Assembly: GCA_046713235.1 (NCBI GenBank)
Contig: JBKKBZ010000125.1
Span: 6,573-70,572, forward strand
From: Actinomycetota bacterium
GTDB taxonomy: Bacteria > Actinomycetota > AC-67
Length of the DNA stretch: 64,000 nucleotides
Reading direction: 5' to 3'
Part shown: in pieces, positions 10,553 to 23,070 of the stretch
Position numbering within the stretch: the stretch's first letter is position 1
Layout of the letters: each line of letters opens with the position of its first letter
Translations under genes and position numbers: made by a program
The notes under the pieces: generated by a model
Databases searched by the model: none
The model's input: the letters and a program-made list of their open reading frames with translations, nothing else
Told to the model about the DNA's origin: nothing

Positions 10553-11185
10553 GTGACGATGACGCCGCACGACATCCTCGGGCGGGAGTTCCGCGAGGCT
10601 TTTCGCGGCTACAACGAGGACGACGTCGATGATTTTCTCGAGGCGGTCGCCGACGAGTATGGGAACCTCTACCAAGAAGTCCAGCGGCTTCGCGTCCAGG
10701 TGGCCTCCCTTCAGCGAGAGCTAGACGAGGTCCGTGGTTCGGCCGTCGCCGATGCCAAGGAGCAAGTGCAGGGAGAAGCCAAAGACGAGATGCGCCGCGC
10801 CCTCGTAGCGGCGCAAAGGGCCGCTGAAACCGCGCTCGCGGAATCTCGTGAGCGGGCGGCCTTGATCGTTTCGGAGGCCGAGGCACGCGCCGGAGAGATC
10901 GACGCCCAGGCGTCGGCTAGGGCGCGGGAGCTGGATCCCGACGCCGCGAAGGCGGCCGACGCGCTCAGGCAGCTCGTGGAAGAACGGCGACGTCAGGAAG
11001 AGGATATCCGCACGAGGATCCGGCTCATGCTCGAAGAGCAGATTCGCCTGCTGGATCAGGTAGAAGCGCAAACCCGGCATGTCTCGATGGTCGAGCGGAT
11101 GTCTCGCGAGCTTTCATCGAGCGGGGCCCCGGGCGATCCTAACGAGGTGGACGGCACCCGCTTCTGGGCCGAGCCAACCGCGTGA
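10553..11185 (+). CDS. divIVA: DivIVA domain cell-pole/division protein
   Basis: N-terminal DivIVA signature (TPHDILGREFREAFRGYNEDDVDDFLE) followed by a long coiled-coil region. Confidence 0.9.
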   Translation: MTMTPHDILGREFREAFRGYNEDDVDDFLEAVADEYGNLYQEVQRLRVQVASLQRELDEVRGSAVADAKEQVQGEAKDEMRRALVAAQRAAETALAESRERAALIVSEAEARAGEIDAQASARARELDPDAAKAADALRQLVEERRRQEEDIRTRIRLMLEEQIRLLDQVEAQTRHVSMVERMSRELSSSGAPGDPNEVDGTRFWAEPTA

Positions 11186-11284
11186 TTCGTCTCACGCACC
11201 CCGCTTTCCGTGCCTGCTTGGCTGCCCCCGCGGGCAGGCGCTAGACTGCGCCCCCGTCGGTTCCCGGAAGGAGGCTCGTCGCCC

Positions 11285-11929
11285 GTGATTGCGCTCAGCG
11301 CCTTGCTCGTCGCAGTGGCCTTTGTCACGCTGATCATCGGGGTTTTCCAGTCGGGTCTTTCCATGATCTGGGTGTCGATCGCCTCGAGCGTGGCCGCCGC
11401 AGTCACACTTGCCCTCGGGGTGGTGCGAAGCCGTCCAAAGGCCATCGCCGTGGGTGGTCCGGACCCGCTCGGTTCTTGGACCGGGACCGCGACCCCAGTT
11501 CTGGATGAGCCCGAGACCGCGAGGGTCTGGGAGCCCGAGCCGGCCCCGGCCCCACAGGAATTCGAAGACGAGTCCATCACGCGGGTGCTCGACCTCAGCC
11601 CGGAAGAGGAGCCGGAACTCCCTCCGATCATGACGCTGCCCCGCCGCGCCGTGCGATCGCCGAAGACCGCGGTCAAGAAAACCCCTGCTAAGAAGTCCGC
11701 CGCCGGGGCACCGGGCAAGAAGGCGACCGCGACCAAGGCCGCCGCGAAGACCGCGACCAAGGCCGCCGCGAAGACCGCAGTCAACAAGACTCCTGCGAAG
11801 AAGCCCGCCGCCGGGACACCGGCCAAGAAGGCGACCGCCAAGAGCGCAGCCAAGAAGACGCCGGCAAAGAAGTCGGCCGCACGCCGGACCTCAGCGCCCC
11901 AAACGGAGACTGCCGAACCCTTCGAGTAG
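11285..11929 (+). CDS. Membrane protein with two N-terminal TM helices and a lysine/alanine/proline-rich histone H1/HU-tail-like C-terminus
   Basis: A GTG at 11285 is preceded by the RBS GGAAGGAGG (11267-11275). Two hydrophobic helices are followed by a PE-rich linker. The C-terminus carries tandem PAKK/AAKTA(T)K repeats. The ORF-track ATG at 11210 is an alternative start. Confidence 0.55.
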   Translation: MIALSALLVAVAFVTLIIGVFQSGLSMIWVSIASSVAAAVTLALGVVRSRPKAIAVGGPDPLGSWTGTATPVLDEPETARVWEPEPAPAPQEFEDESITRVLDLSPEEEPELPPIMTLPRRAVRSPKTAVKKTPAKKSAAGAPGKKATATKAAAKTATKAAAKTAVNKTPAKKPAAGTPAKKATAKSAAKKTPAKKSAARRTSAPQTETAEPFE

Positions 11930-11937
11930 GCGCCCGG

Positions 11938-12948
11938 CTACACGGCGAAGCGGAACTCGACCACGTCTCCTTCGCGCATCACGTAGTCCTTGCCCTCTTG
12001 CCGCGCGATACCTTGCGCACGCGCCTGAGGCCATCCGCCGACTGCCAGGAGTGCGTCGTAGGAAATCACCTCGGCGCGAATGAAGCCGCGCTGGATGTCG
12101 GAGTGGATCGCTCCGGCGGCCTCGGGAGCCGTCGCGCCGGCGGGAATCTCCCAACCGCGGGCTTCCTTTTCTCCGGCGGTCAGAAAGGTGATGAGATCGA
12201 GCCGGTCGAAGACGGCTCGGATCACGCTCGTCAATGCCCGCTCGGAAAGGCCGTAGGAGCTGAGGAGCTCGGCGGCTTCATCCGGCACCATGCCCGCTAC
12301 TTCGGACTCGAGCAATGAGGCCACCGGCGTCGCCCCGGGCGGAATATCGACATGCCGCTCGGGGTCCACGGTCGCCACGAGGACAACGGGTTTCAGCGTG
12401 AGCGGTGACAGCGCGGCCAGCGCCTTGATCTCGGCGGCCTCCCAGGCCGCCTCGCGAAGCGGAGTTCCGGATTCGAGCACCGCCTTGGCCTTCTCGACGG
12501 CGGCAAGCTCCTGAACCGCGCCGGCGTCGCCGGCGCGTGCCGCCTTGCTTCCCCGCAGAACCTTGGCTTCGAACACGGCAAGATCCGCGAGCGTCAGCTC
12601 GAGCGACAGATCGGAGAGATCTGCGACAGGATCGGCATCTTCCCCGAAGGCACGGATTACCAACACCAGCGCGTCCGCCTCGCGCAGATGGCCGATGAGC
12701 TCGGCGGCCAGGGATCCTTGCCCGCGCGCGCCGCGGCGAACCAGCCCGGTGGTTTCGAGGAAGCGGAGCTGCGCATAGACGAGCTTCTTGGAAGAATGCA
12801 GACGGCCGAGCTCGTCGATCCGAGGATCCGGCACCGGCACCACGGCCTGATGAGTGCGTGACGCCGGCCCAGCCTGGATCGCCGTGAGCGCAGTGAAAAC
12901 TGTGGACGTTCCGGCTTGGGGGAGACCGACCAGCCCGACCGACTTCAC
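11938..12948 (-). CDS. YchF/OLA1-like P-loop NTPase paralog with degenerate G motifs (TGS domain retained)
   Basis: The C-terminus (AIHSDIQRGFIRAEVISYD...GKDYVMREGDVVEFRFAV) matches the YchF TGS domain. The N-terminal G1 motif reads GLPQAGTST where the canonical motif is GLPNVGKST (Walker A Lys to Thr). The G3 DxAG is replaced by ETTG, and NVNE by TVDPE. Confidence 0.65.
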   Translation of the reverse strand: MKSVGLVGLPQAGTSTVFTALTAIQAGPASRTHQAVVPVPDPRIDELGRLHSSKKLVYAQLRFLETTGLVRRGARGQGSLAAELIGHLREADALVLVIRAFGEDADPVADLSDLSLELTLADLAVFEAKVLRGSKAARAGDAGAVQELAAVEKAKAVLESGTPLREAAWEAAEIKALAALSPLTLKPVVLVATVDPERHVDIPPGATPVASLLESEVAGMVPDEAAELLSSYGLSERALTSVIRAVFDRLDLITFLTAGEKEARGWEIPAGATAPEAAGAIHSDIQRGFIRAEVISYDALLAVGGWPQARAQGIARQEGKDYVMREGDVVEFRFAV

Positions 12949-12964
12949 GGGAGCACGATTGGTC

Positions 12965-15907
12965 TCATGCGCGTCGCAACGTCACGACGAGTCGCCCGCC
13001 GTGGATCGTGACGTCGGAAGATCCCAACGGATTCTCGACGGCGCTTTGCGTGAATGATTCGGCGAGCACCTCACCGCAGATCCACTCGCGGTGCGGCGTC
13101 AGCGATTCCCACAGCTCATCCGGTCCGTCGATCCCGAGCGCGATGCGATCGCTGACGTTCAAGCCCGAGCGTTTCCGGAGGTTCTGCACGGCGCGCACGA
13201 TCTCACGGGCTCCGCCCTCGGCCCTGAGCTCCGGCGTCAGCTCGGTGTCGAGCCAGACCGTAAGGGAGCCTTCGGTCGCCGAGGCGCCGCCGGTTGGCTC
13301 GGGCCGGCCCTCGCCGTGCTGGGTCAATACGGCCTTGACATTCAGCTCGTCCGCGACGAGGGCGAGAAGATCCCGACTCAGCTGTGTTGCTTCATCGCCG
13401 GTGATGAATGCGGCCCTCAGCGGCTGGCGAACCTTGAGCTTGGAGTCGGTACGCACTTGCAGGCCAAGCGTGACTGCCCGGCGGACCACCGCCATACCCT
13501 CGCGCAGAACGTCGTCGATCAGCGAGGCATCTGCCTCCGGCCAATCGGCGAGGTGAACGCTGTCGGGTGCGTCGGGGTCGATGCTGCGCACGAGGTTGTC
13601 CCACAGCTCGTCGGCGAGGAACGGCGTGTAGGGCGCCAGCAGAAGTGCAAGCGTCCGCAGGCATTCATGCAGCGTTGCGTGCGCCGCCCCCTTGTCCTCG
13701 TCTTCCGCTTCTTTCCAGAAGCGCCGCCGCGACCGCCGGACATACCAGTTCGACAAGTCGTCGACGAACTGCGTGACGCGCCGCCCCCCGGCTGTGGCAT
13801 CGAAGGCTTCCATCGCATCCGTCACGTATTTCACCGTGTCGTGTAGCTCTGCGAGGATCCACCGGTCGAGATGGGGCCGTTTGGCTGCCGGAGTCTGCAC
13901 GGATCGCGGGTCGAGACCGTCGGTGTTGGCGTAGAGCACGTAGAACGAGTACACGTTCCAGAGCATCCGGAGGAAGCCGCGCACGACGTCGTCGATCGCC
14001 TCGGCGTAAACTCTGCGGCTCGACCACGGTGAGCCGACGGTGAAGAGGTACCAGCGCAGCGCATCGGCGCCTTGCTTATCGAGCACTTCCCACGGATTCA
14101 GGACGTTCCCGATCGACTTCGACATCTTGCGGCCGTCTTTGTCGACGATGTGTCCGAGGCAGACGACACGCCGGTACGGCGATTCCCCCTTTAACAAAGT
14201 TGCGATGGCCAGCAGCGAGTAGAACCATCCTCTTGTCTGGTCGATTGCCTCGCAGATGTAGTCGGCTGGGAAACGCTTCTCGAACAGGTCGGCGTTGTCG
14301 AACGGATGGTGCCACTGGGCGAACGGCATCGCCCCCGAGTCAAACCATGCGTCGATAACCTCACGCACGCGCTGCATCGTGGCTCCGCACTCTGGACAGG
14401 TCCAGGTCACCTCGTCGATCGCGGGACGATGCAGATCCAAGCCGGGCAGCTCGTCACCCACTCGTTCTCGGAGGTCGGCTACGCTTCCGACGCACTCCAG
14501 GTGGCCGTTCGCGCATCTCCAGATAGGCAAGGGTGTACCCCAATACCGGTTACGCGAGAGCGACCAATCGATGTTGTTCGCCAGCCAGTCGCCGAATCGG
14601 CCGTGCTTGATGTGCTCCGGGTGCCACACGACGCGCTCGTTCGCGGCGAGGAGGTCCTCTTTGCGTGCAGTGGTCCGGATGTACCAGGACGTCCGCGCGA
14701 AGTAGAGGAGCGGGGTGGTGCACCGCCAGCACAGCGGATAGGAGTGCTCGTAGGACTCGGCGCGGAACAGAACGCCGCGCTCGCGCAAGTCGTCGATGAT
14801 CCTAGGATCGGCAGCTTTGGCGTCTTGTCCGGCGAACGGCACTGCCTCCGGACGAAATCGCCCTTCCTCGTCGACCATGTGGATGACCGGCAGGCCGTGG
14901 CGACGTCCGACCTCGAGGTCTTCCGCACCGTAGGCCGGCGCGATGTGCACGATGCCGGTGCCGTCTTCCGTAGTCACGAACTCGGCGGAGACCACGAACC
15001 ACGCGTGCTCGTCCGGGTCGGCGAATTTGTAGGGCGGGTGGTAGGGGCGCCCCTCGAGGGATCCGGCGTCGAGATACTCTGCGATCCGAGCGCCGGGCCC
15101 GAGAACCCGGTGTACGAGCGGTTCGGCGAGCACCAGCCGCTCGCCGTCGTGCTCGGCGACGACGTACTGGATCTCCGGATGGATCGCTGCGGCGGCGTTA
15201 GAGAGGAGCGTCCAAGGAGTCGTGGTCCAGACGAGCAGTGACGTTCTTTCCTCGTCGGCCAGCGGGAACCGCACGAACACGCTGGGATCGACGACCGTCG
15301 CATAGCCTTGAGCGACTTCGTGATCCGAAAGCGGCGTTCCGCAGCGCGGGCAATACGGCACGACCTTGAAGTCCTCGAAGAGCAGCCCGGCGTCGTAGAT
15401 GGTCTTGAGCGACCACCACACAGATTCGACGTAGTCATTGGTCATCGTCCTGTAGGGGTCGCTCATATCGACCCAGTACGCGATTCGCTCGGTCAGCCGC
15501 TCCCAGTCGCCGACGTATCGCATGACGCTCTCGCGACACTTTGCGTTGAACTCGGCGATGCCGTAGGCCTCGATCTCTTTCTTGGAGGACAGCCCCAGCT
15601 CGCGCTCGATCTCGAGCTCAACCGGAAGACCGTGGCAATCCCAGCCCGCTTTCCTGGGTACGTACTCTCCCCGCATCGTGCGGTACCGAGGGTAGATGTC
15701 CTTGAACACGCGAGCGAGGACGTGGTGAACGCCCGGCTTCCCGTTCGCCGTGGGCGGCCCTTCGTACATCACGAACTCCTGAGCCCCTTCCCGCTGCTTG
15801 AGCGATCGTTCGAAGATCTCTTCGCGACGCCACCGCTCGAGAACGTTGTGCTCCAGAGCGGGGAAATCGATCCGACTGGGAACGTCGCGGAACCGGGGAG
15901 CGCTCAT
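12965..15907 (-). CDS. ileS: Isoleucine--tRNA ligase IleS
   Basis: 980 aa with a HIGH-region equivalent near the N-terminus (PPTANGKPGVHH), the KMSKS motif and a CP1 editing domain. The C-terminus resembles actinobacterial/eukaryote-like IleS. Confidence 0.95.
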   Translation of the reverse strand: MSAPRFRDVPSRIDFPALEHNVLERWRREEIFERSLKQREGAQEFVMYEGPPTANGKPGVHHVLARVFKDIYPRYRTMRGEYVPRKAGWDCHGLPVELEIERELGLSSKKEIEAYGIAEFNAKCRESVMRYVGDWERLTERIAYWVDMSDPYRTMTNDYVESVWWSLKTIYDAGLLFEDFKVVPYCPRCGTPLSDHEVAQGYATVVDPSVFVRFPLADEERTSLLVWTTTPWTLLSNAAAAIHPEIQYVVAEHDGERLVLAEPLVHRVLGPGARIAEYLDAGSLEGRPYHPPYKFADPDEHAWFVVSAEFVTTEDGTGIVHIAPAYGAEDLEVGRRHGLPVIHMVDEEGRFRPEAVPFAGQDAKAADPRIIDDLRERGVLFRAESYEHSYPLCWRCTTPLLYFARTSWYIRTTARKEDLLAANERVVWHPEHIKHGRFGDWLANNIDWSLSRNRYWGTPLPIWRCANGHLECVGSVADLRERVGDELPGLDLHRPAIDEVTWTCPECGATMQRVREVIDAWFDSGAMPFAQWHHPFDNADLFEKRFPADYICEAIDQTRGWFYSLLAIATLLKGESPYRRVVCLGHIVDKDGRKMSKSIGNVLNPWEVLDKQGADALRWYLFTVGSPWSSRRVYAEAIDDVVRGFLRMLWNVYSFYVLYANTDGLDPRSVQTPAAKRPHLDRWILAELHDTVKYVTDAMEAFDATAGGRRVTQFVDDLSNWYVRRSRRRFWKEAEDEDKGAAHATLHECLRTLALLLAPYTPFLADELWDNLVRSIDPDAPDSVHLADWPEADASLIDDVLREGMAVVRRAVTLGLQVRTDSKLKVRQPLRAAFITGDEATQLSRDLLALVADELNVKAVLTQHGEGRPEPTGGASATEGSLTVWLDTELTPELRAEGGAREIVRAVQNLRKRSGLNVSDRIALGIDGPDELWESLTPHREWICGEVLAESFTQSAVENPLGSSDVTIHGGRLVVTLRRA

Positions 15908-16143: not shown

Positions 16144-16773
16144 GTGGCGAGCGCCGCCAAGAAACCCGTTGGGAAGAAGGTTGCGAAGCCTGCCGCGCCC
16201 AAGGCGGCTGGGAAGAAGGCCGTCCCGGCACGAACGGCGCCGAAGGCAGCAGCTGCCAAACCGGCGCGGAAGAAGGTCGGCAAGGAGGGGCCGGAGAAAG
16301 CCTCGGCTGCCCCAGGCGCGACCAAGGCACAGCGGGCCGCTCCGGCCGTATCTCCGGCAAAGACCCCTGCTGCCGTCAAGCCGAAGCCGCGCAAGCCGCC
16401 CTTCACCCCGAAAGAGCTCGCGGCGATTCGCGAGAACCTCATCGCTCACCGGGCACAATTGCAGCGGGAGGCTGACGAACTCAACGCCGGTAGCTTTGAT
16501 GCCACGCAGTCCGAGATTTCGGGCGAGGTCGCGTTCGACGAGGAATATGCGGACGCCGGTACCTTCACGTTCGAACGGGAGCGCGATCTTTCCCTCGGCA
16601 ACAACATCCGCGATCTCGTCGACCGCATCGACCTTGCGCTTGTGAAGATCCAGCGCGGCACCTACGGCGTTTGTGAGCGCTGCGGCGAGCCGATCACAAA
16701 GGAGCGCCTGGTGGCGCTCCCGTACTCTGTGCTGTGCGTGAAGTGCAAGCAGATCGAAGAGCGGCTGGCATAG
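16144..16773 (+). CDS. DksA/TraR-family C4 zinc-finger protein with lysine/alanine-rich N-terminal tail
   Basis: The C-terminus carries CERCGEPI...(17 aa)...CVKC, matching the DksA/TraR CxxC-N17-CxxC finger, plus a coiled-coil. The N-terminal ~110 aa are AKK/PAK repeats. The position upstream of lspA matches streptomycete synteny. Confidence 0.8.
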   Translation: MASAAKKPVGKKVAKPAAPKAAGKKAVPARTAPKAAAAKPARKKVGKEGPEKASAAPGATKAQRAAPAVSPAKTPAAVKPKPRKPPFTPKELAAIRENLIAHRAQLQREADELNAGSFDATQSEISGEVAFDEEYADAGTFTFERERDLSLGNNIRDLVDRIDLALVKIQRGTYGVCERCGEPITKERLVALPYSVLCVKCKQIEERLA

Positions 16774-19560: not shown

Positions 19561-22500
19561 GTGAACAGCTTCGTGCATCTGCACAACCATTCGGAGTATT
19601 CCCTGCTGGATGGGGCGGCCCGGATCGACGAGCTCTTCGCCGAGGCCGCCAGGATGGACATGCCGGCACTGGCGCTGACCGACCACGGCGTGATGTACGG
19701 GGCCGTCGACTTCTATAGGGCAGGGAAACGGCACGGCGTCAAGCCCATCCTCGGAGCCGAGTTCTACGTTGCGACCCGGAGCCGCTTCCAGAAGGAGGCC
19801 CGGGAGAAGGACTCCAATCATCACCTTACGATCGTCGCCGAGAACCAGCAGGGCTACGAGAACCTGCTCCTTCTGGTGACGGCGGGGTGGCTGGAGGGCT
19901 ATTACTACCGCCCGCGCGTCGACCGAGAAATCCTGGCCGAGCTTGCCGGCGGGCTCATCGCGACGAGCGGCTGCCTCGGTGGCGAGATCTGCACGGCGCT
20001 TTCCCAGGGGCGCGTGGGGGACGCGGAAGCGGCCGCCGGGAGCTACCGAGACATTTTCGGCCCCGATGGGTTCTTCATCGAGCTTCAGGACCACGGCTTG
20101 CCGGAACAGCGCAAGGTAAATCCCATGCTCCTCGAGCTTGCGAAAAAGCTTGGACTGCGAACGGTGGCCACGAACGACCTCCACTACACGAAGCGGGAAG
20201 ACGCGGCAGCCCACGACGTCCTGTTGTGCCTTCAAACCGGCAAGACGATGAACGATCCCGGGCGCTTCAAGTTCGACGCTGAGGAGTTCTATCTCAAGAG
20301 CCCGCAAGAGATGCGGGAGCTCTTTGCAGAAGTCCCGTCGGCATGCGACGTTACGCTGGAGATCGCCGAGCGATGCAACGTGGAGCTGGAATTCGGAAAC
20401 CTTCATTTGCCGCCCTTCACTCCGCCGACCGGCGAAACGCAAGAAGCGTATTTGCGTCGTCTCGTGGACCAGGGGGCGCATGACCGCTATGGAGATCCGT
20501 TCGCTCCGGAGGTGCGTGAGCGCATCGAGCACGAGCTGTCGATCATCCTTCCCATGGGATTCGCCGGCTATTTCTTGATCGTGGCCGACCTCATCGCGTT
20601 TGCGAGGAGCAAAGGGATTCGCGTCGGCCCGGGCCGGGGAAGTGCAGCCGGCTCAGTCGTTTCCTATTGCTTGCGAATCACCGATCTCGATCCGCTGAAG
20701 TACGGACTCATCTTTGAAAGATTTCTCAACCCCGAGCGTCGCCAGATGCCCGACATCGACATGGATTTCGATGAGCGGCGCCGGAGCGAGGTGATCCGGT
20801 ACGTCACCGACAAGTACGGCGAGGATCGCGTCGCACAGATCGTCACCTTTGCCACCATCAAGGGGAAGCAGGCCATCCGCGACGCAGCTCGCGTCCTGGA
20901 CCTCCCCTACGGAGTCGGGGACCGGTTGGCCAAGATGTACCCGCCTTCGATCCTCGGCAAGGACGCTCCGCTGGCGGCTTGTTTCGATCGTGGCGTGGGC
21001 TGGCCGGACCCCGGTCGCAACGACGCCTTTCCGAATTCCTCGGATCTCCGCAAGTCGTATGAGGAGGACGAGATCAGCCGGCGCGTGATCGACATAGCGC
21101 GCTCTCTGGAAGGCCTGCGCCGCCAGTATTCCGTCCATGCCGCAGGCGTTGTCATCGGCTCTGAACCGCTCGCGCGTTTTACACCGCTCCAGCGCACCGA
21201 CGACGATCAGGGCGGCATCGTCACGCAATACGAGATGCACGCGGTGGAGGATCTCGGTCTGCTGAAGATGGACTTCCTCGGTCTCCGCAATCTAACGGTG
21301 ATCGAGGACACGCTCGCCAACCTCCGGCGGACGAAAGGCATCGAGCTCGACATCGACAATCCACCCCTCGACGACAGAACCACCTATGCAATGCTGTCGG
21401 CGGGGGACACGATGGCCGTTTTCCAACTCGAGTCCCCCGGGATGCGGGAGCTGTGCAAGCGCCTTCGACCCGACCGTTTCGAGGACGTCATGGCTCTCGT
21501 AGCCCTCTACCGACCGGGACCGCTCGGCGAGAAAATGCATATCGAGTACGCAGATCGCAAGCACGGAGTGAAGCGTGTTGACTACGCGCATCCCGATCTA
21601 AAGCCGATCCTCGATCGGACGTACGGGATCATTTGCTACCAGGAGCAGTGCCTGGAGATCGCGGTTCGGATGGCCGGCTACACGATGGGCGAAGCCGACA
21701 CCCTCCGAAAGGGGATCGGCAAGAAGATTCCGGAAGTCATGCGCGCACAGCGCGAGAAGTTCGTCGAGGGGTGCGTCGAAAAAGCGTATTCGCGTGAGCT
21801 CGGCCAGAAGCTCTGGGAGATGATCGAACACTTTGCCGGCTACGGATTCAACGCTTCGCACGCGTGCGGATACGGATTCATCGCCTATCAAACCGCCTAT
21901 CTAAAGGCCCATCACCCGGTCGAGTACATGGCGGCGCTGCTCACCAGCGTTCGAGACAAGCAGGACCGTGCAGCGCTTTATCTCGCCGAGTGCCGGACGT
22001 TGGGAATCACCGTCAATCCTCCGGATGTGAATCGCTCCGACGCCGACTTCACGCCGACTCGTGAGGGCGAGATCAGGTTCGGCTTGGCGGCAATACGGAA
22101 CGTGGGATCAAACGTCGTCCAGGCGATCGTGCGCGCACGCGCCGACCGGCCCTTTACGTCCTTCACCGACTTCGCTCATCGCGTCGACCCCGTCGTCCTG
22201 AATCGACGGGTGGTGGAGGCGCTGGCGAAGTCCGGCGCCTTCGATTCTCTAGGGGTAACGCGATCCCAACTGCTTGCGGTGAGTCCGGACAAGGGTGTGG
22301 TCCTGCGCGATTCGGTAGCTCGCACCATCGATGCGACAATCGCGCAGCGAAAGAACGAAGAGGCGGGGCAGTTCTCGCTCTTCGGAGGAGAGCAATCGCA
22401 GCAGATGGCCGAGTTGCCGGCGGCCGATCAGGAGCTTCCCCAAAGTGTACGTCTGATCGCCGAGAAAGAGATGCTCGGGCTCTATGTTTCCGATCATCCG

Positions 22501-23070
22501 CTGCTCGGGGTCGAGGCGGCGCTGCGAGCGTCCACCGATCTGCGCATCGCCGATGCTCCCGCCGTCGCTCCGGGGGTCACGAAAACGGCCGCGGGAATCA
22601 TCAGCGGCCTCCTTCGCCGATTCACCAAGAAAGGCGACGCCATGGCCACGTTCGTCCTCGAAGATCTCGAGGGTGCGATCGAGGTGGTCGTGTTTCCCTC
22701 GGTTTACGCAAAGGTGCAGGAGGTTTTGGCGAACGACGCGATCGTATGCGTGAAGGGCAAGGTTGAAGTGCGCGGTGAAGGGGATCCGCCGAAGATCATG
22801 GCACAGGAGGTGTGGGTCCCCGATTTCGAGGGGGGTAGCGACCCCCTCATCCTCAAGGTTGAGGCCGGCACGTGCACGCCCGGCCTCGTCGACCGGCTCA
22901 AGGATGTCCTCACGTCTCATCCCGGCCCGACCCAGGTGCATGTTCACCTGCATAGCGAGGCGGGAGTAAAGGTTCTTCGCCTCCCCGGGCAGTTCGGCGT
23001 CGAGCGACGCAACGGCCTCTACGGGGAGTTGAAATCCTTGCTCGGCTCCGGGGCGACGATAGAGCGGTAG
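19561..23070 (+). CDS. dnaE: DNA polymerase III alpha subunit DnaE (PHP + Pol IIIalpha + OB)
   Basis: GTG start. N-terminal PHP domain (HLHNHSEYSLLDGA), polymerase core and fingers. 1169 aa. Confidence 0.95.
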   Translation: MNSFVHLHNHSEYSLLDGAARIDELFAEAARMDMPALALTDHGVMYGAVDFYRAGKRHGVKPILGAEFYVATRSRFQKEAREKDSNHHLTIVAENQQGYENLLLLVTAGWLEGYYYRPRVDREILAELAGGLIATSGCLGGEICTALSQGRVGDAEAAAGSYRDIFGPDGFFIELQDHGLPEQRKVNPMLLELAKKLGLRTVATNDLHYTKREDAAAHDVLLCLQTGKTMNDPGRFKFDAEEFYLKSPQEMRELFAEVPSACDVTLEIAERCNVELEFGNLHLPPFTPPTGETQEAYLRRLVDQGAHDRYGDPFAPEVRERIEHELSIILPMGFAGYFLIVADLIAFARSKGIRVGPGRGSAAGSVVSYCLRITDLDPLKYGLIFERFLNPERRQMPDIDMDFDERRRSEVIRYVTDKYGEDRVAQIVTFATIKGKQAIRDAARVLDLPYGVGDRLAKMYPPSILGKDAPLAACFDRGVGWPDPGRNDAFPNSSDLRKSYEEDEISRRVIDIARSLEGLRRQYSVHAAGVVIGSEPLARFTPLQRTDDDQGGIVTQYEMHAVEDLGLLKMDFLGLRNLTVIEDTLANLRRTKGIELDIDNPPLDDRTTYAMLSAGDTMAVFQLESPGMRELCKRLRPDRFEDVMALVALYRPGPLGEKMHIEYADRKHGVKRVDYAHPDLKPILDRTYGIICYQEQCLEIAVRMAGYTMGEADTLRKGIGKKIPEVMRAQREKFVEGCVEKAYSRELGQKLWEMIEHFAGYGFNASHACGYGFIAYQTAYLKAHHPVEYMAALLTSVRDKQDRAALYLAECRTLGITVNPPDVNRSDADFTPTREGEIRFGLAAIRNVGSNVVQAIVRARADRPFTSFTDFAHRVDPVVLNRRVVEALAKSGAFDSLGVTRSQLLAVSPDKGVVLRDSVARTIDATIAQRKNEEAGQFSLFGGEQSQQMAELPAADQELPQSVRLIAEKEMLGLYVSDHPLLGVEAALRASTDLRIADAPAVAPGVTKTAAGIISGLLRRFTKKGDAMATFVLEDLEGAIEVVVFPSVYAKVQEVLANDAIVCVKGKVEVRGEGDPPKIMAQEVWVPDFEGGSDPLILKVEAGTCTPGLVDRLKDVLTSHPGPTQVHVHLHSEAGVKVLRLPGQFGVERRNGLYGELKSLLGSGATIER

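What the first reader, a model, noticed from the sequence alone, without database searches (positions are those of the whole stretch)
11938..12948. YchF-like protein with degenerate Walker A/G3/G4 motifs (probable pseudo-NTPase)
The protein retains YchF fold hallmarks, including the C-terminal TGS domain ending GDVVEFRFAV. The G1 motif GxxGxPNVGKST is GLVGLPQAGTST, so the catalytic lysine is lost. G3 DIAG becomes ETTG, and the specificity motif NVNE becomes TVDPE. This is not a random frameshift: the whole frame is intact. It suggests a conserved non-catalytic paralog, or an NTPase using a different binding mode.
Basis: seen in the sequence. Interest (0 to 1): 0.5.

Follow-up and report, generated by a model that had tools for sequence, protein, structure and literature searches.

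The report
Catalytically dead YchF ATPase relative
This gene encodes an intact, conserved relative of the near-universal ribosome-associated ATPase YchF that has lost every residue needed to bind and split ATP, so a whole group of uncultured actinobacteria appears to use YchF as a nucleotide-independent protein.

Summary
ORF 11938-12948 (-) encodes a 336-aa three-domain YchF/OLA1 homologue (PDB 1jal E=3e-62; AF2 pLDDT 89.6; TM 0.90 to E. coli YchF on the 50S). The P-loop Lys is Thr, G3 Asp is Glu and G4 NxxE is TVDPE. Switch I/G2 and the catalytic His114 loop are deleted.

It is not a pseudogene. All 120 best database homologues (55-73% id, uncultured Actinomycetota) lack the P-loop Lys and carry both deletions. 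They diverge no faster than MurB/MurC/IleS, with crude dN/dS 0.2-0.4, like canonical ychF. The clade is monophyletic (100/100). Its sister clade keeps Lys/Arg in 118/118 and the G3 Asp.

An independent Lys loss occurred in Acidimicrobiia at the ancestral ychF locus.

The gene usually follows ileS. One related genome has it after accA instead.

The TGS domain, switch II and the basic helical tip (the 23S H62 contact in E. coli) stay conserved.

Best reading: a class-i-like pseudo-NTPase that keeps a ribosome-binding role.

Whether a canonical ychF exists elsewhere in the genome could not be tested, so 'paralog' is unproven. Novelty: a new variant of a known kind, of moderate interest.

The parts
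11938..12948 (-). ychF-like gene (336 aa + stop), a predicted pseudo-NTPase of the YchF/OLA1 family
12901..12927 (-). Degenerate P-loop/G1, residues 8-16 GLPQAGTST. The Walker A Lys is replaced by Thr14. The Ser/Thr at positions 15-16 is kept.
   Evidence: (0 of 120 clade members have K/R here)
12844..12870 (-). Remnant of switch I/G2, residues 27-35 GPASRTHQA. Six residues are deleted relative to E. coli F32-I37, including the Mg-binding Thr36 and Cys35.
   Evidence: (deleted in 120/120)
12739..12762 (-). Degenerate G3, residues 63-70 FLETTGLV (E. coli FVDIAGLV; Asp72->Glu65). It is followed by the conserved switch II segment GLVRRGARGQGSL (12709-12747).
   Evidence: (E in 112, D in 7 of 120)
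12628..12651 (-). Site of the 9-residue deletion that removes the catalytic His114 loop (residues 100-107 AFGEDADP)
   Evidence: deleted 120/120; His114 role: PMC11814078 section 6
12397..12630 (-). Helical (coiled-coil) insertion domain, residues 107-184. The tip is RGSKAARAGDAGAV (12514-12555). The equivalents of E. coli K149 and K152 are kept (K135, R138). The K159 equivalent is Val145 in this protein but K/R in 117/120 relatives.
   Evidence: H62 contact residues from PMC11814078
12358..12375 (-). Degenerate G4, residues 192-197 ATVDPE (E. coli ANVNED). The Asn and Glu of NxxE are lost here but kept in most of the clade.
   Evidence: N in 106, E in 101 of 120
11947..12195 (-). C-terminal TGS-like domain (PF06071 YchF-GTPase_C), residues 252-334. 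It is the most conserved part of the protein.
   Evidence: lowest dN/dS
12965..15907 (-). ileS (980 aa), directly upstream on the same strand. The 16-nt spacer (12949-12964) has no promoter-like or terminator-like site, so this is a probable bicistronic ileS-ychF-like operon, divergent from a dksA-like gene at 16144.
   Evidence: The same ileS->ychF-like order is seen in L001, L086, L168, L171 and L173.

Best explanation
The gene encodes a conserved, catalytically dead member of the YchF/OLA1 family, a 'pseudo-ATPase' most like a class i pseudoGTPase.

Shown:
- The full three-domain YchF fold is retained: G-like domain, helical insertion and TGS domain.
- The P-loop Lys, switch I (with the Mg-binding Thr), the G3 Asp, the catalytic His114 loop and, in this protein, the NxxE specificity motif are all gone.
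- The same state is fixed in a monophyletic clade of an uncultured Actinomycetota lineage.
- That clade evolves under purifying selection at the pace of ordinary housekeeping genes.

Inferred:
- The protein no longer binds or hydrolyses ATP/GTP.
- It acts through the surfaces that stayed conserved: the TGS domain, the switch II segment, the VPxPDxR hairpin and the basic tip of the helical domain. In E. coli YchF that tip clamps 23S rRNA helix H62 beside uL14/bL19.
- Most likely it is a nucleotide-independent, constitutively 'on' (or constitutively 'off') ribosomal-subunit-binding or translation-modulating factor. It is co-expressed with isoleucyl-tRNA synthetase.
- It probably descends from the lineage's own ychF rather than being an ancient second copy.
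For: Family and fold:
- PDB YchF hits of 3e-62 to 5e-36.
- PF06071 at 1e-32.
- AF2 model with pLDDT 89.6 and pTM 0.87.
- Foldseek TM 0.90 to 8kie_y, E. coli YchF(H114A) on the 50S.

Loss of catalytic and binding residues across 120/120 homologues.

Monophyly and contrast with the sister clade:
- The clade is monophyletic in 100/100 bootstraps.
- The sister 'K-short' clade keeps K/R in 118/118 and the G3 Asp in 118/118. The loss is therefore a discrete shift, not general sloppiness.

Selection:
- All homologues are intact.
- NG86 dN/dS is 0.21-0.41 (TGS 0.10-0.39), against 0.33-0.46 for canonical Actinomycetia ychF by the same crude method.
- Identity to the window protein is 57-68%, against MurC 61-66%, MurB 54-70% and IleS 65-73% in the same genome pairs.

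Retention after relocation: GCA_054638955.1 lacks the gene after ileS (L169; no remnant) but has it after accA (L166).

Conserved ribosome-contact tip: the K149 equivalent is K/R in 120/120, K152 in 117/120 and K159 in 117/120. The contact residues are from PMC11814078.

Precedent: hydrolysis-dead YchF(H114A) stays bound to the 50S.

Independent parallel: Lys-less, switch-I-less YchF in Acidimicrobiia at the orthologous ychF-DUF192-rsmI-metG locus. It groups with K-bearing L022 in 93/100 bootstraps and with the window clade in 0/100.
Against: - There is no biochemical test, so loss of nucleotide binding is inferred from sequence only.
- The P-loop backbone (GxPxxG) and the Ser/Thr after the lost Lys remain conserved, and most clade members keep NxxE. 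Some phosphate or nucleotide contact cannot be excluded.
- E. coli YchF binds ribosomes in its ATP-analogue-bound state. An empty G domain might therefore bind poorly.
- The window protein itself has Val at the K159-equivalent tip position.
- Synteny is not uniformly translation-related: one subclade follows accA.
- dS is near saturation, so dN/dS values are rough.
- It is unknown whether a canonical ychF co-exists in the genome.
Confidence: 0.6

Rival explanations
1. It is a non-catalytic paralogue. The genome also has a canonical, K-bearing ychF elsewhere. The dead copy modulates or competes with it, for example by occupying the same ribosomal site.
For: YchF is near-universal, so a canonical copy would be expected. 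The gene is not at either ancestral actinobacterial ychF locus (rmuC-lytB-xseAB, or rsmI-metG-ksgA-ispE-prs). Its presence after ileS is patchy among relatives (L169 and L172 lack it).
Against: Only one YchF homologue is present in the 64-kb window. The K-bearing sister form sits in the canonical ychF locus of Mycobacteriales-type MAGs. In GCA_054638955.1 the pattern is complementary, one copy relocated to accA, rather than additive. The Acidimicrobiia Lys-less forms replace the ortholog in situ. About 2.3 Mb of contigs carrying the Lys-less gene share no contig with any of the 118 listed K-short proteins. None of this excludes a canonical copy on unseen contigs.
Confidence: 0.3
2. It is still a nucleotide-binding protein (ATP, GTP or (p)ppGpp) with an altered binding mode. 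It would act as a non-hydrolysing sensor: a class ii/iii-type pseudoGTPase rather than an empty one.
For: The glycine-rich loop and the following Ser/Thr-Thr are conserved (S/T in 109/120, T in 112/120). NxxE is kept in about 85% of the clade. A conserved basic residue (R/K31, 117/120) lies in the switch I remnant. A plant YchF-ppGpp complex exists (7y9i).
Against: The Lys position is occupied by S, V, A, T, P or I among close relatives, and some members also lose the second P-loop Gly (GLPEAEPAT). Switch I with the Mg-binding Thr is deleted, and the G3 Asp is replaced. The window protein additionally lost NxxE. R/K31 is also present in K-bearing sisters, so it is not a compensating change.
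Confidence: 0.15
3. It is a decaying gene: a recent pseudogene, or an annotation or sequencing artefact.
For: Multiple catalytic motifs are lost. The protein scores below the TIGR00092 and MMR_HSR1 cut-offs.
Against: The reading frame is intact here and in at least 120 clusters down to 55% identity. dN/dS is well below 1. There are 60 invariant columns among 64 aligned members. The AF2 model is confident. Gene order is conserved, with 4-nt overlaps to the upstream gene in relatives.
Confidence: 0.02

Closest known systems
YchF / OLA1 (E. coli YchF, H. influenzae HI0393, T. thermophilus YchF, human OLA1; NCBIfam TIGR00092)
   Same: It has the same three-domain architecture and fold (TM 0.82-0.90) and 33-39% identity. 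The TGS domain, the switch II segment, the LTLKP and VPxPDxR motifs and the basic helical tip are conserved. Like pth-ychF in E. coli, the gene is linked to a translation gene (ileS).
   Different: It lacks the P-loop Lys, switch I/G2, the G3 Asp, the catalytic His114 loop, the redox Cys35 and (in this protein) the NxxE motif. It is about 27 residues shorter. It scores below the TIGR00092 equivalog cut-off.
E. coli YchF(H114A), the engineered hydrolysis-dead mutant (PDB 8kie/8w51; PMC11814078)
   Same: It cannot hydrolyse ATP. The mutant stays stably bound to the 50S at uL14/bL19/H62. This is the best available model for what a natural dead YchF could do.
   Different: H114A still binds ATP. 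The protein here has probably lost binding as well.
Class i pseudoGTPases (e.g. AAGAB psGD, p190RhoGAP pG1/pG2; PMC12490416, PMC5593906)
   Same: The G-domain fold is retained, the G motifs are degenerate and the protein is evolutionarily conserved. It presumably acts through protein or RNA interaction surfaces.
   Different: Those are eukaryotic small-GTPase-like domains. This is a bacterial TRAFAC/Obg-class, ribosome-associated factor. Absence of nucleotide binding has not been measured here.
'K-short' YchF-like clade of uncultured Actinomycetota (P0122/P0123 types; PGAP name 'DUF933 domain-containing protein')
   Same: It is the nearest relative (48-54% id). It shares the switch I and His114-loop deletions and the shorter length.
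   Different: It keeps the P-loop Lys/Arg (118/118) and the G3 Asp (118/118). The P0122 type lies in the canonical rmuC-lytB-xseAB ychF locus.
Ribosome anti-association factors RsfS / eIF6
   Same: If the inferred 50S binding at uL14/bL19 holds, it would work in the same way: nucleotide-independent occupation of an intersubunit bridge region (comparison drawn in PMC11814078).
   Different: They have unrelated folds. Nothing here tests anti-association activity.

Membership tests
YchF/OLA1 (TIGR00092 equivalog) | Three-domain architecture: G domain, helical insertion and C-terminal TGS-like domain (PF06071) | tested here: met
   PF06071 at 9.6e-33. AF2 plus Foldseek give TM 0.90 to 8kie_y over 362 columns.
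YchF/OLA1 (TIGR00092 equivalog) | Score at or above the curated NCBIfam cut-off | tested here: not met
   246.1 bits against a cut-off of 279.2. Pfam MMR_HSR1 scores 20.4 against 21.9.
YchF/OLA1 (TIGR00092 equivalog) | G1 / Walker A GxxxxGK[ST] | tested here: not met
   GLPQAGTST. Lys is replaced by Thr, and 0/120 clade members have K/R.
YchF/OLA1 (TIGR00092 equivalog) | G2 / switch I with the Mg-coordinating Thr (PFxTIxPN) | tested here: not met
   The 6-residue deletion is present in 120/120.
YchF/OLA1 (TIGR00092 equivalog) | G3 DxxG | tested here: not met
   ETTG here. Glu in 112 and Asp in 7 of 120.
YchF/OLA1 (TIGR00092 equivalog) | G4 NxxE (ATP-preference motif) | tested here: not met
   TVDPE in the window protein. 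N is kept in 106 and E in 101 of 120 relatives.
YchF/OLA1 (TIGR00092 equivalog) | Catalytic His114 loop | tested here: not met
   The 9-residue deletion is present in 120/120.
YchF/OLA1 (TIGR00092 equivalog) | ATP binding and ribosome-stimulated ATP hydrolysis | not testable with these tools
   This needs purified protein.
YchF/OLA1 (TIGR00092 equivalog) | Ribosome binding through the basic tip of the helical domain (K149/K152/K156/K159 in E. coli) | tested here: inconclusive
   The equivalents of K149 and K152 are kept (K135, R138). The K159 equivalent is Val here but K/R in 117/120. K156 is not kept. Binding itself is untested.
Class i pseudoGTPase / pseudo-NTPase | G-domain fold retained while the G motifs are degenerate | tested here: met
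Class i pseudoGTPase / pseudo-NTPase | Evolutionary conservation (purifying selection) of the inactive form | tested here: met
   At least 120 intact clusters. dN/dS is 0.2-0.4. Divergence is like MurB/MurC/IleS.
Class i pseudoGTPase / pseudo-NTPase | No nucleotide binding and no hydrolysis | not testable with these tools
   Inferred only from loss of Lys, switch I, Asp and His.

The most novel reading that the evidence does not exclude
In at least two separate Actinomycetota lineages (this uncultured clade and a group of Acidimicrobiia), the sole ortholog of the 'universally conserved ATPase' YchF has become a nucleotide-free pseudo-ATPase. It is nevertheless kept under selection. This would mean the core cellular role of YchF (ribosome or translation modulation) does not require ATP binding or hydrolysis.
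Probability: 0.35. Interest if true: 0.7.

Novelty: new variant of a known kind. Interest (0 to 1): 0.5.

Why it matters
YchF/OLA1 is one of the handful of P-loop NTPases found in nearly all cells, yet what its ATPase cycle is for remains unsettled. A naturally ATPase-less but selectively maintained YchF, arising twice, is a natural separation-of-function experiment. Its conserved surfaces mark what YchF does without nucleotide. These are the TGS domain, switch II and the H62-binding tip. The protein also gives a ready construct for testing ribosome binding and anti-association without ATP.

There is a practical side too. These proteins fall below the TIGR00092 cut-off. PGAP therefore labels them 'DUF933 domain-containing protein'. 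They may also be scored as a missing marker wherever YchF is used as a single-copy marker; that YchF is so used is my recollection, not something tested here.

Tried and rejected
1. Second canonical ychF in the same genome. Only the window could be searched, and it holds one homologue. The window's contig is not in the gene-position index.
It returned no clade member; the best hit was 51% identical.
3. The metagenome-contig scan with the protein hit the same limit. It gave one clade member (L086).
4. Matching contig lengths between the hit lists for Lys-less YchF, FtsZ and K-short YchF, as a look for co-occurrence. The only matches were the expected FtsZ/YchF-like neighbours. No K-short protein shared a contig with them. 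This is weak negative evidence only.
5. dN/dS is near saturation and compressed by high-GC codon bias. I used it only in comparison with canonical ychF treated identically.
6. Rfam scan of the window: no T-box or other leader at gathering score upstream of ileS, only tRNA-Leu. The promoter/terminator scan of 11100-13100 found nothing.
7. The context of P0123-type K-short genes (L036) was uninformative: MFS, DsrE, adenylate cyclase and an ABC transporter.
8. Literature. No paper holds both 'YchF' and 'pseudoGTPase'. The 'DUF933' papers are irrelevant.
9. I considered an ancient A/B paralogy inside the Lys-less clade (ileS-linked versus accA-linked). I rejected it as unnecessary: divergence matches that of the housekeeping neighbours, and GCA_054638955.1 shows a complementary pattern, not an additive one.
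10. The predicted model's coordinates are not exposed, so pocket geometry and possible self-occlusion could not be measured.

Full report
**1. What is there**

ORF 11938..12948 on the minus strand (GTG start, 336 codons, no internal stop) lies 16 nt downstream of a 980-aa ileS (12965..15907, same strand). It is convergent with a divIVA-proximal gene at the end of a dcw cluster: murC, murB, ftsQ, ftsZ, pgeF ... divIVA. No promoter-like or terminator-like site separates ileS from the ORF. The two genes are therefore probably co-transcribed, divergently from a dksA-like gene at 16144.

**2. Family and fold**

- Pfam finds YchF-GTPase_C (PF06071, 9.6e-33) and a weak TGS hit. The G-domain model MMR_HSR1 scores below its gathering score (20.4 < 21.9).
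- NCBIfam TIGR00092 (redox-regulated ATPase YchF) aligns end to end but scores 246.1, below the 279.2 cut-off.
- All seven solved YchF/OLA1 sequences match, at 3e-62 to 5e-36.
- An AlphaFold2 model built on 64 clade sequences is confident (pLDDT 89.6, pTM 0.87).
- The model superposes on E. coli YchF(H114A) bound to the 50S with TM 0.90. It superposes on T. thermophilus, rice, Arabidopsis, H. influenzae, yeast and human YchF/OLA1 with TM 0.82-0.90.

So it is a complete three-domain YchF-fold protein.

**3. The motifs**

- G1: GLPQAGTST against GLPNVGKST (Lys15->Thr).
- G3: FLETTG against FVDIAG (Asp72->Glu).
- G4: ATVDPE against ANVNED (the Asn and Glu of NxxE are lost).

- A 6-residue deletion removes switch I/G2, including the Mg-coordinating Thr36 and the redox Cys35.
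- A 9-residue deletion removes the loop carrying the catalytic His114.

The roles of His114, Ser16, Cys35 and NxxE are taken from PMC11814078 and PMC8779481.

**4. It is a conserved state, not decay**

- The 120 best hits among 5.8 billion proteins are 55-73% identical and full length. All come from metagenomes or 'Actinomycetota bacterium' MAGs, many named 'DUF933 domain-containing protein'.
- None of the 120 has Lys or Arg at the Walker A position (S 40, V 36, A 19, T 18, P 4, I 1).
- All 120 carry both deletions. 112 have Glu and 7 have Asp at the G3 position.
- In a 64-sequence alignment, 60 columns are invariant. They are concentrated in the TGS domain, the switch II segment (V70 R71 G73 R75 G78 L80), the VPxPDxR hairpin, ELxLADL and LTLKP.
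- Crude NG86 dN/dS among six members is 0.21-0.41 overall, 0.22-0.46 in the G domain and 0.10-0.39 in the TGS domain. dS is near saturation. Canonical Actinomycetia ychF treated identically gives 0.33-0.46, so there is no sign of relaxation.
- In the same genome pairs the protein is 57-68% identical, against MurC 61-66%, MurB 54-70% and IleS 65-73%.

**5. Where the clade sits**

- An exhaustive profile-free search of 1.84 billion 50%-identity representatives finds only two full-length Lys-less representatives of this clade.
- The next hits are a 'K-short' group (P0122, P0123, P0124, P0126; 44-52% id). This group shares the two deletions but keeps GK[ST].
- In bootstrapped NJ trees the Lys-less clade is monophyletic in 100/100 replicates. 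It groups with all K-short forms in 58/100.
- A profile search with K-short sequences returns 118 further members. 117 have Lys and 1 has Arg, and all keep the G3 Asp.
- Lys and Asp are thus strictly constrained in the sister clade and entirely free or absent in this one. That is the signature of a discrete functional shift.

**6. Orthology clues**

- Canonical Actinomycetia ychF (Streptomyces, Actinopolymorpha, Galactobacter) lies beside rmuC-lytB-xseA-xseB.
- The P0122-type K-short gene of Mycobacteriales/Frankiaceae-labelled MAGs lies in the same place. It is only about 41% identical to canonical YchF, while its neighbours are 57-79% identical.
- In Acidimicrobiia, two Lys-less and switch-I-less forms (GSPDSGHAQ and GFTGAGANR) occupy the same ychF-DUF192-rsmI-metG-tatD-ksgA-ispE-glmU-prs locus as K-bearing relatives.
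- Those two forms group with K-bearing L022 in 93/100 replicates and with the window clade in 0/100.
- Loss of the Walker Lys has therefore happened at least twice, in situ in one case.

**7. Synteny within the clade**

- Six loci from the three largest subgroups have ileS->ychF-like next to dcw/divIVA: the window, L168, L001, L086, L171 and L173. The genes often overlap by 4 nt.
- The 'GLPD..' subgroup follows accA (biotin carboxylase), again with a 4-nt overlap.
- Two relatives (FtsZ 88-89% identical to the window's) have dcw-divIVA-ileS without the gene and without any remnant (L169, L172).
- One of these genomes, GCA_054638955.1, carries the accA-linked copy on another contig.
- This complementary pattern fits one gene per genome that was relocated and kept.
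- FtsZ homologues down to 70% identity all come from unnamed 'Actinomycetota bacterium' MAGs, so the host is an uncultured lineage.

**8. Mechanism**

Shown: the fold, the lost residues, the conservation and the conserved surfaces.

Inferred: no nucleotide binding or hydrolysis.

- In E. coli, the helical-domain tip (K149, K152, K156, K159) binds 23S H62, and the domain docks on uL14/bL19.
- Hydrolysis-dead H114A stays on the 50S, and YchF promotes subunit splitting or anti-association (PMC11814078).
- In the clade, the K149, K152 and K159 equivalents are K/R in 120, 117 and 117 of 120 members. The window protein has Val at the last of these.
- I therefore propose a nucleotide-independent ribosomal-subunit-binding or translation-modulating factor co-expressed with IleRS.

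Caveats:
- E. coli YchF binds ribosomes in the ATP-analogue state.
- The P-loop backbone, the following Ser/Thr and (in most members) NxxE persist.
- accA linkage is not translation-related.

**9. What remains open**

- I could not test whether a canonical ychF co-exists. The window has one homologue. No whole-genome access exists.
I put it at about 0.3, against about 0.6 for a divergent descendant of the lineage's own ychF.
- No paper in the searchable library links YchF to pseudoGTPases.

**10. Verdict**

This is a real, conserved pseudo-NTPase variant of a well-known family, arising convergently in two actinobacterial lineages. It is a new variant of a known kind, of moderate interest (0.5).

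Noticed in passing
L005:10001-11029 (P0284) and L071:10001-11014: An independent second case. Acidimicrobiia YchF homologues lack the P-loop Lys (GSPDSGHAQ / GFTGAGANR), switch I and the His loop. They sit in the same ychF-DUF192-rsmI-metG-ksgA-ispE-glmU-prs locus as K-bearing relatives (L022, L054, L073). The 90% cluster of P0131/P0284 has 74 members.
   Followed up: partly
window 12965-15907 vs L001:6882-10004, L086, L171: The ileS upstream of the ychF-like gene comes in two forms at the same chromosomal position. One is 970-982 aa (window, L168, L169, L172, L173; 65-73% identical to each other). The other is 1038-1040 aa (L001, L086, L171). The two forms are only about 37-40% identical, although FtsZ is 83-85% identical. 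This suggests in-situ displacement of ileS by a distant homologue.
   Followed up: partly
L003:10001-11053, L006:8231-9283: Mycobacteriales/Frankiaceae-labelled MAGs carry a K-bearing but switch-I-less and His-loop-less YchF in the canonical bipA...ychF-rmuC-lytB-xseAB locus. It is only about 41% identical to canonical Actinomycetia YchF, while LytB, XseA and XseB are 57-76% identical. This points to strongly accelerated evolution, or replacement, of ychF in situ.
   Followed up: partly
proteins P0127-P0265: A large, widespread non-canonical YchF-like subfamily has a GxPxSGKT P-loop and no PFxTIxPN switch I motif. It accounts for 84 of the 153 sequences analysed (the nearest 50%-identity representatives plus added clade members). 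PGAP mostly labels these proteins DUF933-only. Its relationship to canonical YchF (paralog or ortholog) was not examined.
   Followed up: no
L007, L008, L009, L036 (P0123-type proteins): The P0123-type K-short proteins also lack about 10 residues of switch II (FVDVPG----------GL). They may therefore be impaired NTPases, even though they keep Lys and Asp.
   Followed up: no
window 11210-11929 (+): A 239-aa ORF lies between divIVA and the ychF-like gene. It has an N-terminal hydrophobic segment and a C-terminal Lys/Ala/Pro-rich histone-H1-like tail (AKKTPAKK repeats) and gives no Pfam hit. ORFs at the same position occur in relatives: 239 aa in L001, and 228 aa with a PF07382 HC2 hit in L171. 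No tblastn similarity to them was detected.
   Followed up: partly
L173:1-2040: In relative GCA_975198055.1 the dnaE next to this region encodes a 1615-aa product with intein (PF14890) and LAGLIDADG hits. The window's dnaE (19561-23070, 1169 aa) has no such insertion.
   Followed up: no
L173:9645-10004: In the largest subgroup (339-aa proteins), a 119-aa ORF with no Pfam hit is inserted between ileS and the ychF-like gene. It overlaps both by 4 nt.
   Followed up: no
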